Source of the DNA: Eledone cirrhosa
Lineage: Eukaryota
Assembly (NCBI GenBank): GCA_964016885.1
Contig: OZ024756.1
Location: forward strand, 43,772,001-43,836,000
Direction of reading: 5' to 3'
Length of the DNA: 64,000 nucleotides
Below are positions 30,718-42,047 of this stretch, in pieces; the stretch's first letter is position 1, and each line of letters starts with the position of its first letter. Below the pieces are notes generated by a model, which saw nothing but the letters and a program-made list of their open reading frames with translations, ran no database searches and had not been told where the DNA came from. Position numbers and translations under genes: made by a program.

Positions 30718-30761
30718 AATAATATTAATAAATGGAAACTATCTTTATAAAACCATATTTA

Positions 30762-30818
30762 TTTTATTATACACATTTCAAGGGTACCAGTATTTTGGTA
30801 CCCTATCGTCAGATAAAA
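30762..30818 (-). ncRNA. hammerhead-like motif
   Basis: Minus strand ttttat-CTGACGA-t-agggtacca(aaatac)tggtaccct-t-GAAA-tgtg-TA-taataaaa. Same family as the 10.8 and 41 kb palindromes but with a different stem II sequence. Confidence 0.6.
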
Positions 30819-31539
30819 TACAAAAATTGGTTTACAGATAGTGACATATCTACATATGAACTTAATGTTATGAGTTCTATGTTAATAGGATGCAATATAA
30901 GGCGGGATTCGTTTGTATGTTCTATCACCTCTTAGTTCCGTTAAGTCCCGTCCATTGCTCTTGCAGAAAAATATCACATATCAACATATTTTATTATGCT
31001 TTGTTTTTTCTTTATTGTGTGATGGGACAGGTTGGAGTATTTATCTTTGCCATGATTCTCCATAACTCCCTCACCCGGCTACCCCCGTCCATAGAAACAT
31101 TCCGATGAAATATTTACATATCTCTCATCCACACCAAACCTCCATTAGTCCCTTGACTTTTTTTTAATAAATTTGGTGTGGAAAGGAGACTTTTTATCTT
31201 TTCTTCTTTTTTTGTAATTTTCAAAGAATTTATTTTGTTAATATATATGAAGGTAATTATAATAATATTCATGATAATGTTATTATTGTGTTAATTTTCA
31301 GTAAAAAAAAAATATTAAATAATATATAACAAATATGTATATATAAAACAAACATTGGTTTGTTGTTTGTTGTTATATTTCTTTATAATATACTGTATTT
31401 CCCAGCATCAAAGATGCTATATTTTTATTTCAGTCTAAACACCGAGGACTATAACTGGTATTGTACAGGCCTTAAGATGCTACAGTTTCTCATTTTCAGT
31501 TGATATACTGTGCTTTCTGAACTCTTTCAAGATGTTACG

Positions 31540-39413: not shown

Positions 39414-40117
39414 TATATATATATATAAACACAGATATACATGTTTGTGTGCACGTATTTATATACACACATATATATATATACATATACACATACATAT
39501 ATACATACATCTATATATACACACATACATATATACATACATAGATCTATACATACATCCATATATATATATATATATACATACATAGATCTATATGTAC
39601 ATATATATACATACATATATACTTACATACATACATCTATACATACATACATATATATATATATATACATACATCTATATATACATATATATATATATAT
39701 ACATACATCTATATATACATATATATATATATATACATACATCTATATATACATACACCGACAGTTCTCTCTTGTTGCGATGTTTCTGTGAACTTTCATT
39801 GTTTACCTGAAAGAACTGTAAATCTTTTGTTATTAAAGTGTAAAGATGTGTACATGTGTGTGTATATATGTGTGCGTGTGTGTACATGTGTGACTGAGTC
39901 CGAGCGAGTATGTGTATAGGTGTGTATATGTGGTTCTCTCTGTAAGTGTGTGTATATATCTGTGTATGTGTATGTATGTGTGTATATGTGTATATGTATG
40001 TATGTATGTGTAGTCCTGTCTGTCCTTCACGAAAGTTTGTCATAGTTGGATGACATCCCACCACCAACAGCAATACCCCCCCCCCCCCCAACATCCCCAC
40101 CACCACCACTAACACCC

Positions 40118-40157
<40 letters not shown>

Positions 40158-40303
40158 TTTTGAGTTTATGTTGGTTGTATACCAACACCTCAGTATGCAG
40201 GCTGGAGCACTCGACGAAGTGCGCAGGTTGGTTTGGTTACTCCGGAGAAGTGTAAAATAAAGTTAAATAAAAGTCAAATGATTAAAATTTAGCTTCGTTT
40301 ATT

Positions 40304-40358
40304 ACTGCTATATATATTTCAGTGACAGCCATCTTTGGCTGTGACCTCTTCAGGCAGT
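40304..40358 (-). ncRNA. type I hammerhead ribozyme (Penelope-like element terminus)
   Basis: Minus strand actgc-CTGAAGA-ggtcacagcca(aaga)tggctgtcact-GAAA-tatata-TA-gcagt. Stem I 5 bp, stem II 10 of 11 pairs, palindromic stem III. Confidence 0.85.
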
Positions 40359-40699
40359 TTGAATTAGTATGGTATAGACAAGTACATATGTTGTTGAGGT
40401 GTATAACTTTGTCAATACTCTGATATGCCCAGTTCCTTGTTGGGTTGTTAATTCACTGAGGAACTAGAGTCATATATATAATTCAATATCTTCACACAAA
40501 CATATATAAACTTATATATCTGTGTATGTATGAATGTGTGAATGTATGTATATGTATAATCTGTTATTTTAATAAATATTTGCTCTACGGTTCTTATATA
40601 TTTGATATATATTTATCCTTATCGAGCCCTCTTTGAATTTTAGTCTTCAAATTTATTATTATTACTATATATATATATATATATATACTTGTATACTTG

Positions 40700-40735
<36 letters not shown>

Positions 40736-40786: not shown

Positions 40787-40871
40787 AAAAGTTCTATTTA
40801 AATTGTTGGGATACAACAAGCAAATATTTTTATAACTGATATAAAGCACTCAACAAATAATTGGAGTAAAA

Positions 40872-41239
40872 ATACGATATTAACAAATGGAAACTATATT
40901 TATAAAACCATATTTATTTCATTATACATATTTCAAGGACACAAAGTTAAATTATGGTGTGCTTTCATCAGATAAAATATAATATAGATCAGTTTTATAA
41001 ATAAAAATAAATATTGACATACCCTTAAAAAATGCAACCATTTCTGTTGGAAGCTCCCGGGAGCTTCCAACAGAAATGGTTGCATTTTTTAAGGGTATGT
41101 CAATATTTATTTATAAAACTGATCTATATTATATTTTGTCTGATGAAAGCACACCATAATTTAACTTGGTGACCTTGAAATATGTATAATGAAATAAATA
41201 TGGTTTTATAAATATAGTTTCCATTTGTTAATATCGTAT
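40872..41239. repeat. about 370-bp loopless palindrome, same family as 10764-11158
   Basis: Centre agctccc|gggagct at 41057/41058. CTGATGA 41140-41146 ... GAAA 41177-41180. Confidence 0.9.
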
Positions 41240-41316: not shown

Positions 41317-42047
41317 TGTATACTTGTTATATATATATACTTGTATATTTTTAGGAAGGGGAAAGTCAATTAAATCGACCCCAGTGCATTACTGGCATTC
41401 TATGTTATCGACTCCGTAAGGACGAAAGGCAAAGTTAACTTCGGCGGGATTTGAACTCATACGTAAAGGGGCGTAACTCTTTGCCGTAAAGCATTTTGTT
41501 CGACGCTCTACCGATTACTGCTCTTCCACCGAATACAATATAAGTAAATCTATCCCGCATACTTCTACATTACTCCGGGGGAGGGAGGCGCTGGAACAGT
41601 CACTCCACCTCGTAACATTTATTCAAATAGTTCTTACTACATTCCATACGTTCTATCATCCTCACCTTCCCCCTCACACACTCATCCATGGTTCAAGGGA
41701 GATCACTCTAAATTGCATACAGAGTTATCTCCCTTGTATATTTCAGCAGATTGAGTTGTCGTAAGCAGCTCTTACTGATACCAACATGCGTTGCCGTCAT
41801 CCATCTTCTTCTTCTTCTTCTTCTTCTTCTTCTATCTTCTTCTCCTCCCCCTTCACTGTGTATGTGCGCGCACGCGCATCAGTGTTAATCTGTACTTGGA
41901 TGTATATGTATGTGTGTGTGTGTGTGTGCATATGCGTATGTGTGTGCATGTGCGTGTGTGTGCGCGCGTGTGTGTGTGTTACCAATTTTCTTTTTACTAT
42001 AAACGATGTAAAGAGTACTCAATACACATGACAGAGTTGATAAATGC

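What the first reader, a model, noticed from the sequence alone, without database searches (positions are those of the whole stretch)
40157..40500. Complete hammerhead ribozyme next to a decayed GIY-YIG C-terminus: a Penelope-like retroelement end
Seen: a fully base-paired type I hammerhead on the minus strand (40304-40358). About 90 nt upstream on the same strand (40447-40490) the frame reads RY*IIYMTLVPQ*IN, and both stops are one base from W and G. The unit is bounded by (TA)n. Established: Penelope-like elements end their ORF with a GIY-YIG endonuclease (WI..L.T..P.GLN-like C-terminus) and carry minimal hammerheads with palindromic stem III in their pseudo-LTRs. Inference: this copy identifies the other hammerhead-bearing pieces in the window as PLE termini.
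Basis: partly seen in the sequence, partly recalled or inferred. Interest (0 to 1): 0.75.

Follow-up and report, generated by a model that had tools for sequence, protein, structure and literature searches.

The report
Hydra-clade Penelope end with hammerhead
This is the 319-base end piece of a young jumping gene of the known Hydra group of Penelope-like elements, present in thousands of copies in this animal genome; it carries a hammerhead RNA motif that likely cuts only weakly or as a pair, and the ends of its copies suggest that short and long copies are made from different RNAs.

Summary
The hammerhead is real (minus strand 40358-40304, intact core, cut predicted after 40309), but helix II has a family-wide C.C mismatch and Rfam does not detect it. 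The 'decayed GIY-YIG C-terminus' is not supported: it is the non-coding start of the terminal repeat plus flank. The overall inference holds by another route: full copies are a 4.1-kb RT plus GIY-YIG element with all Hydra-clade motifs, whose endonuclease ends 1.1 kb upstream. There are 5,033 exact copies of the hammerhead's 3' half. Copy ends are sharp: 85 of 86 pieces end at one of two sites 96 nt apart, none at the ribozyme cut, and 27 of 28 head-to-head pairs use one of each. Short copies pile up at one initiator-like 5' base with a conserved CCAAT box (32 of 86); ORF-start copies never begin there (0 of 30). This suggests uncut promoter-started RNA templates short copies, and longer or circular RNA templates long ones (inferred; no RNA data). 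The window's second hammerhead family is also a Hydra-type element. Known kind; this scan noted similar Penelope footprints on other DNA.

The parts
40157..40475 (-). Terminal unit (pLTR from the preferred 5' base to the end of the tail, 319 nt) of a Hydra-clade Penelope-like element; single arm, no ORF
   Evidence: 98-99% identical to the best-scoring genomic copies. Ends coincide with the family's preferred ends. Differs from the majority base at 5 of 319 positions, none in the hammerhead. The 7 bases TTGAATT just 5' of it (about 40480-40486) also match the family's upstream sequence, so the 5' boundary may lie there instead.
40304..40358 (-). Type I hammerhead: helix I 5 bp, helix II 10 bp with C.C mismatch and G.U closing pair, palindromic helix III; predicted cut between 40309 and 40308
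   Evidence: covariation across related families
40423..40475 (-). 5' hairpin starting exactly at the preferred 5' base (+1 = 40475). In long copies +1 lies in an initiator-like TTC/ATA with CCAAT boxes at -52 and -182; these upstream boxes are absent here
   Evidence: Hairpin z -4.0, 0 of 300 shuffles, folded on the L013 copy; CCAAT positions; 5' pile-up
40157..40252 (-). 96-nt tail between the two fixed 3' ends (40253 and about 40157); in tandem copies it is the 5' UTR leading to the ATG 56 nt further on
40123..40156 (.). (TA)n target at the 3' end
   Evidence: 84 of 86 sampled pieces are followed by (TA)4 or (CT)5 within 30 nt
40447..40490 (-).
40788..41239 (.). Second family: head-to-head pair of terminal pieces (arm with tail on minus, shorter arm on plus), with hammerhead cores starting at 40971 (minus) and 41140 (plus)
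   Evidence: the same unit runs into a related ORF in L130 (RT region 58% identical to family 1)
10713..11157 (.). Older head-to-head pair related to the second family (about 80% identity); hammerhead core at 10860 on minus
30722..30823 (-). Diverged hammerhead-bearing terminal piece related to the second family (83%)
61381..61471 (-). Tail-only piece of the second family (95%)

Best explanation
The piece is the 319-nt end of a young Hydra-clade Penelope-like retrotransposon inserted in a (TA)n repeat, and it is likely a complete reverse transcript of the first 319 bases of an uncut RNA that would start at the element's own promoter. Shown: the parent element is a 4.10-4.15-kb unit (ATG, RT, CxCX5C linker, GIY-YIG, about 1.1 kb of 3' UTR, hammerhead, tail); copies end at two fixed sites into (TA)n; head-to-head pairs use one site on each arm; short copies pile up at +1. 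Inferred: the endonuclease nicks both strands of a (TA)n repeat, and the RT starts inside the RNA at the two fixed sites, 56 and about 152 nt 3' of the ribozyme cut, as shown in vitro for the anole Poseidon element. A transcript with one hammerhead cannot close its palindromic helix III, stays uncut, and cDNA runs off its 5' end at +1, then joins the target or folds back through the 5' hairpin to give inverted pairs. Transcripts with two hammerheads (tandem copies) can pair their palindromes and cut, and read-through or circular RNA would give the ORF-bearing copies, which show no stop at +1. This copy lacks the upstream CCAAT boxes, so it is likely silent unless read through.
For: ORF link and motifs: (GIY-YIG E 8e-4, below the Pfam cut-off); Hydra diagnostics from PMC8557442 section 11. 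3' ends: 45 at +219 to +225, 40 at +314 or beyond, 1 other, 0 at the cut (+167), of 86 pieces in 60 loci. 27 of 28 head-to-head pairs are one short end plus one long end. 5' ends: 32 of 86 within -5 to +6, next best equal bin 7. Genome-wide, (TA)6 is joined at +1 in 331 places, at the helix III/cut in 21, and at a control ATAT palindrome in 5. Among copies that reach +1, 32 of 64 sampled pieces stop there against 0 of 11 ORF-start copies (Fisher p 0.0018), which argues for a template end rather than a sequence-imposed stop. A third, diverged family keeps CTGACCAATGAGA at -56 and TC/ATATG at +1 while the DNA between diverges, and 2 of its held copies are TA-joined at +1. PMC11167929 (parts 1-2 of 4): two internal RT starts define the tail, both strands are extended, and uncut RNA is the main substrate.
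Against: No RNA evidence of any kind: start site, cleavage, dimer and circle are untested. The 30 ORF-start copies are the best matches to one young copy, not a random sample; the pile-up does occur in both subfamilies of sampled pieces (16 of 24 and 14 of 35 that reach +1). ATAT microhomology with the target and the TCATATGA palindrome could raise stops at +1 on their own. In the second family the matching test is weak (11 against 2) and its CCAAT match is poor. The computed two-copy fold pairs the 8-nt palindromes but does not give the active double hammerhead. Only 1 of the 16 true starts near the cut runs into the ORF, so cut RNA as a template has little direct support; 5 of 19 ORF-start copies begin at +159 to +179 (p 0.014, window chosen afterwards).
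Confidence: 0.6

Rival explanations
1. All copies are ordinary 5'-truncated products of one template (for instance the downstream pLTR or a circle), and the pile-up at +1 is a sequence hot spot from the TCATATGA palindrome, the 5' hairpin and ATAT microhomology with (TA)n.
For: +1 begins with ATAT inside an 8-nt palindrome and at the base of a strong hairpin; many inverted junctions sit there.
Against: A second 8-nt palindrome with an ATAT core has 5 TA-joined starts against 331, and the 9-nt TA run of helix III has 21. 0 of 11 ORF-start copies that reach +1 stop there. The CCAAT box and TC/ATATG are conserved in a diverged family.
Confidence: 0.25
2. The 319-nt unit now spreads as its own non-autonomous, SINE-like or retrozyme-like element, transcribed from solo loci that kept the upstream promoter.
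For: Short copies far outnumber ORF starts (5,033 exact hammerhead words against 257 ORF-start candidates, which is a lower bound). Retrozymes as PLE derivatives are proposed in preprint 10.64898/2026.07.22.740005 (part 1 of 5).
Against: Short copies are 98-99% identical to ORF-linked copies and share their subfamily variants. No tandem arrays of the unit were seen in the 60 sampled loci. This overlaps with the best explanation and differs only in which loci supply the RNA.
Confidence: 0.3
3. One reading: a decayed GIY-YIG C-terminus lies directly upstream of the hammerhead (or the 3' UTR was once captured from another PLE clade).
For: A relaxed form of the motif, defined after the fact, occurs once in the six frames of the window, at this place.
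Against: Negative profile scores; stop fixed in 139 of 144 copies; wrong spacing; the real endonuclease ends 1.1 kb upstream; the diverged family keeps the DNA motif but not the peptide.
Confidence: 0.04
4. The hammerhead's cut makes the priming end: the RNA would end in (UA)n and pair with the nicked (TA)n target.
For: Helix III is itself a TA repeat ending at the cut.
Against: 0 of 86 pieces end at the cut, although the pattern used to sample them would have caught such ends. Related families have TGCGCA or TGATCA in helix III.
Confidence: 0.02

Closest known systems
Hydra clade of C-terminal EN+ Penelope-like elements (Craig et al. 2021, PMC8557442; passages, section 11 and supplement Files S1, S2 and alignment passages seen), including Hydra-1_Obim
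   Same: RWK, DKT, CxCX5C linker, no CCHH, CxxC before E and CxH after N, C-terminal GIY-YIG, hammerhead near the 3' end, (TA)n target, partial tandems and inverted 5' copies.
   Different: 4.1 kb against generally under 3 kb, owing to a 3' UTR of about 1.1 kb and low-complexity inserts (160 aa against 21-72 in the homologues measured). The 26 Hydra-type hammerhead rows of File S2 list uninterrupted helix II of 3-7 bp and helix III of 3-4 bp; here helix II is about 10 bp with a fixed mismatch and helix III is a pure palindrome. The Hydra-1_Obim hammerhead is a different sequence.
Minimal PLE hammerheads (Cervera and de la Pena 2014, PMC4209133; parts 1-2 of 4 read)
   Same: Type I, short helix I, long helix II, palindromic helix III, dimer expected, opposite-strand pairs 100-700 bp apart, mostly solo copies.
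   Different: No extra base between positions 9 and 10.1; closing pair G.U (G-C in a subfamily, A-U in family 2) instead of the conserved G10.1-C11.1; an unpaired C at the fourth position of helix II. The paper notes a bulge in helix II only for D. virilis.
Poseidon PAc of Anolis (Frangieh et al. 2024, PMC11167929; parts 1-2 of 4 read)
   Same: Two internal RT start sites that define the tail, both DNA strands extended, AT-rich targets, uncut RNA as template.
   Different: Tail 96 nt against 30-40. Both sites lie in the 5' UTR before the ATG, not inside the ORF. Different clade. Here the evidence is genomic only.
Penelope of D. virilis promoter in the pseudo-LTR (Schostak et al. 2008, PMC2377424; passages seen)
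   Same: [quoted passage not shown]
   Different: Here the candidate promoter has upstream CCAAT boxes that copies starting at +1 lose; no intron was seen; untested.

Membership tests
Hydra-clade PLE | Single ORF with RT and C-terminal GIY-YIG endonuclease | tested here: met
   814-aa open frame in L034 from the RT N-terminal region to the stop; N-terminus in L050; Pfam GIY-YIG E 8e-4, under the cut-off
Hydra-clade PLE | RWK motif near the N-terminus | tested here: met
   L050 frame, residue 39
Hydra-clade PLE | DKG changed to DKT | tested here: met
   HADKTNNLY; DK[TS] in 119 of 120 homologues
Hydra-clade PLE | CxCX5C linker | tested here: met
   CNCRNPESC; 116 of 120 homologues
Hydra-clade PLE | CCHH absent; CxxC and CxH flank the conserved E and N | tested here: met
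   One unconserved C between NLVY and YIG; CKLCLNE and CRH present
Hydra-clade PLE | (TA)n target and hammerhead near the 3' end | tested here: met
   84 of 86 pieces
Hydra-clade PLE | Placement inside Hydra in an RT tree with published references | not tested
   No reference set was available to the tree tools; compared by eye with published alignment passages only
Hydra-clade PLE | Generally under 3 kb | tested here: not met
   4,097-4,152 nt between successive +1 sites; a descriptive trait in the paper, not a diagnostic one
Nematis, Neptune or Penelope/Poseidon PLE | [quoted passage not shown] | tested here: not met
   my early label 'Nematis' was recalled and was dropped
Type I minimal hammerhead | Core CUGANGA, GAA and UH in three helices closed in helix I | tested here: met
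   core nearly invariant in 183 copies
Type I minimal hammerhead | Covarying helices and palindromic helix III | tested here: met
   16 helix II variants, three pair types at positions 3 and 5; helix III TATATA, TATGTA, TGCGCA, TGATCA
Type I minimal hammerhead | G10.1-C11.1 pair and extra base after position 9 | tested here: not met
   G.U in 164 and G-C in 19 of 183 copies; no extra base
Rfam hammerhead families | Match to a covariance model | tested here: not met
Type I minimal hammerhead | Self-cleavage as monomer or dimer | not testable with these tools
   Needs a bench assay
Non-LTR retrozyme | Tandem arrays of a short hammerhead-bearing unit, circular RNA | tested here: not met
   No tandem array of the unit in 60 loci; circular RNA not testable

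The most novel reading that the evidence does not exclude
The hammerhead works as a copy counter that splits one element into two replication routes. Single-hammerhead RNA from a CCAAT/initiator promoter stays uncut and is copied into thousands of promoterless mini-copies and inverted pairs. Two-hammerhead RNA is cut and circularised and yields long copies that regain their promoter. A fixed unpaired C in helix II, kept across at least ten Hydra-type families, is the contact for the element's own protein or a tertiary partner that licenses cutting.
Probability: 0.3. Interest if true: 0.68.

Novelty: new member of a known kind. Interest (0 to 1): 0.42.

Why it matters
What PLE hammerheads do is open: PMC8557442 calls their function unclear, and PMC11167929 found cleavage unnecessary in vitro. 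This young, abundant family records its replication in thousands of copy ends. It gives exact, testable positions for the RNA start (+1), the two priming sites (+223 and about +319) and the cut (+167), and shows that short and ORF-bearing copies differ at the 5' end. It extends the two-start-site mechanism from Poseidon to the Hydra clade on genomic evidence, and offers a hammerhead variant with a conserved helix II mismatch. The window copy itself is an ordinary, probably silent, insertion.

Tried and rejected
Rfam scans: no hammerhead family. PDB sequence search with the 814-aa frame: 0 matches at E up to 1. Pfam found no RT family for the long frames. Sequencing runs: no RNA holder listed; no reads or contigs were laid, so expression and RNA ends remain open. 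A tblastn of the family protein against the window found nothing, so no ORF remnant of this family lies in the window. The idea that the ribozyme cut makes the priming end was rejected. The idea that starts at the cut mark full-length copies of cut RNA was not supported: of 21 matches, 4 are TA expansions inside hammerheads, 1 is a fold-back, 16 start near the cut and only 1 runs into the ORF. A common fold for the tails of three families was not found (consensus -0.58 kcal/mol), although ACTCC and GTGCT words are shared. The label Nematis (recalled) was dropped. Apparent 5' ends at -62 are an artefact of a deletion in the reference copy. Lunse et al. 2016 (small PLE hammerheads that cleave as dimers) is not held; I saw only its citation in PMC6765202 (passages), and it may already describe the helix II mismatch. 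Literature searches: (listings); none showed a paper on this mismatch or on 5' pile-ups, but the library lacks most subscription papers. Supplements of PMC4209133 and PMC11167929 were not opened and may bear on both points.

Full report
Numbering. Positions are given as +n along the minus strand from window 40475 (+1), so +167 = 40309, +223 = 40253 and +319 = 40157.

1. The observation. The hammerhead is present at 40358-40304 with helix I ACUGC/GCAGU, core CUGAAGA and GAA, helix III AUAUAUAU and triplet AUA. The monomer fold gives helices I and II only (-16.7 kcal/mol, z -2.54, 4 of 200 shuffles). Helix II has a C.C mismatch and a G.U closing pair. Both are the family state: 182 and 181 of 183 held copies have the two Cs, and 164 have U against 19 C at the closing position (held loci include some overlaps). 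Rfam does not detect it. A core-anchored scan gives 5 hits in the window and 1 in total over 50 shuffles. (TA)n flanks the 3' end only.

2. The family. A genome search gave 1,584 candidates, of which 40 were scored; the best are 98-99% identical over +1 to +319. An exact 25-mer of the hammerhead's 3' half occurs 5,033 times, with 0 for the reversed control. Longer copies extend 5' through about 1.1 kb of non-coding DNA into a GIY-YIG endonuclease and an RT. L034 holds an 814-aa open frame whose stop lies about 1,100 nt before +1; successive +1 sites in tandem copies are 4,097, 4,134 and 4,152 nt apart. After +319 the sequence continues as a 5' UTR to an ATG at +375. The protein has 765 relatives at E up to 0.001 among 7,997 scored candidates. 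It shows RWK, DKT, CNCRNPESC, no CCHH, CKLCLNE and CRH, which are the diagnostics of the Hydra clade in PMC8557442 section 11. A Hydra element is already listed from an octopus, with a different hammerhead. No tree with references was built.

3. A profile from the family protein and 80 of the 120 listed homologues gives negative scores in the six frames of 40100-40700 and 135 bits on the true endonuclease end. The stop after PQ is TGA in 139 of 144 copies, AGA in 4 and ACA in 1. The family reads *IHMTPVPQ*IN; the closer spacing here comes from extra TA units at the junction, and it is still one residue short. A diverged third family keeps the DNA words around +1 but not the peptide. The relic is rejected.

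4. The other hammerheads in the window. The pair at 40788-41239 and the pieces at 10713-11157, 30722-30823 and 61381-61471 belong to, or are related to, a second family (1,498 candidates). In L130 its terminal unit runs straight into a broken ORF whose N-terminus and RT match family 1 (58% over 189 aa), with an inverted endonuclease piece beside it.

5. Copy ends. I fetched 60 regions in order along contig C1 from the first 100 listed matches, skipping one pair already held as L045. Of 86 pieces spanning the hammerhead, 45 end at +219 to +225, 40 at +314 or beyond, 1 at +254 and none at +167; 84 run into (TA)4 or (CT)5 within 30 nt. Of 28 head-to-head pairs, 27 have one short and one long end. 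This matches the two internal RT starts, extension of both strands and use of uncut RNA shown for the anole Poseidon element (PMC11167929, parts 1-2 of 4), with a 96-nt tail in place of 30-40.

6. The 5' pile-up. 32 of 86 pieces start within -5 to +6; the next best 12-nt bin holds 7. Genome-wide, (TA)6 joins +1 in 331 places, the helix III/cut in 21 and a control palindrome near +89 in 5. +1 lies in TTC/ATA, which fits the metazoan initiator consensus (recalled), with TGACCAATG at -52 and -182 and a strong hairpin from +1 to +53 (z -4.0). The third family keeps CTGACCAATGAGA at -56 and TC/ATATG, and 2 of its held copies are TA-joined there. The second family gives a weak parallel (11 against 2). 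In contrast, 0 of 30 ORF-start copies begin at +1: 19 begin at +36 to +301 and 11 extend beyond -70 (these are 30 of 40 scored, of 257 candidates). Stops at +1 among copies that reach it are 32 of 64 against 0 of 11 (p 0.0018). I infer that +1 is the end of a template, most simply a transcription start, and that ORF-bearing copies come from RNA that extends past it. Five of the 19 start at +159 to +179, near the cut (p 0.014, chosen afterwards), which is only a hint.

7. The ribozyme variant. Among hammerheads with a 6-nt helix III insert and a UA cleavage site in the held DNA, 16 helix II variants were grouped. Pair 4 is unpaired in 16 of 16 representatives (C.C 11, C.U 2, C.A 2, U.C 1), while pairs 3 and 5 pair in 16 of 16 with three pair types each. 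Over 280 copies, dominated by family 1, 276 are unpaired at 4; a few copies pair there. The variants are related, so these counts are not probabilities. Other hammerhead families with a shorter helix III insert and mostly shorter helix II were excluded by the pattern. Helix III stays self-complementary through double changes (TATATA, TATGTA, TGCGCA, TGATCA), including its centre, which fits dimer pairing as proposed in PMC4209133 (parts 1-2 of 4). The computed two-copy fold pairs the palindromes but is not the active form. The 26 published Hydra-type rows list uninterrupted helix II; a key paper on small PLE hammerheads could not be read.

8. Mechanism. Shown: identity, architecture, target, two 3' ends, one-of-each pairing, 5' pile-up and its absence in ORF-start copies. 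Inferred: nicking of both strands, internal priming, promoter at +1, an uncut monomer, dimer cutting and a circular or read-through template. Confidence is about 0.97 for a Penelope-like end, about 0.9 for Hydra, and 0.6 for the template model.

9. Novelty. A new member of a known clade with variant features. Earlier notes of this scan describe similar two-ended Penelope footprints in this and another genome; none was returned for this sequence or for the promoter point. These notes are leads, not support. Interest 0.42.

Noticed in passing
window 40915-40979 and 40304-40358, both minus strand: Hammerheads of two families lie about 600 nt apart on one strand; their helix III palindromes (AUAUGUAU and AUAUAUAU) could cross-pair with one wobble in a read-through RNA.
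   Followed up: no
L034:4944-7388, L045, L048, L050: The ORF carries long low-complexity inserts (160 aa after the RT thumb against 21-72 in homologues), and many copies shift frame in a G-rich run there.
   Followed up: partly
window 40157-40252, L055:6455-6575, window 40788-40871: Tails of three families share the words ACTCC, near the first priming site, and GTYGAGTGCT, possible protein-binding signals; no common fold was found.
   Followed up: partly
L042, L070, L044, L067, L093 and others: Several further hammerhead families with a different helix III insert (CTAG, GAAC, CCACTGG and others) and mostly shorter helix II occur in 1.1 Mb of held loci.
   Followed up: no
L123 (oriented 632-1144, minus): Endonuclease end of another Hydra-type family, 41% identical to family 1.
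   Followed up: no
window 10924-11001: Near-perfect hairpin at the centre of the older inverted pair; the Rfam microRNA hit there is below the gathering score and reflects the fold-back.
   Followed up: partly
window 13755-16051, 27244-27710, 51588-52682, 52802-53162: Long tandem repeats with periods of 9, 25, 31 and 55 nt.
   Followed up: no
L046:6004-9775 and L035:8094-9899: Open frames that look like a Helitron Rep/helicase and a LINE reverse transcriptase (labels from recall).
   Followed up: no
window 41345-41560: Non-simple sequence after a (TA)n run that looks like a dispersed repeat; not examined.
   Followed up: no
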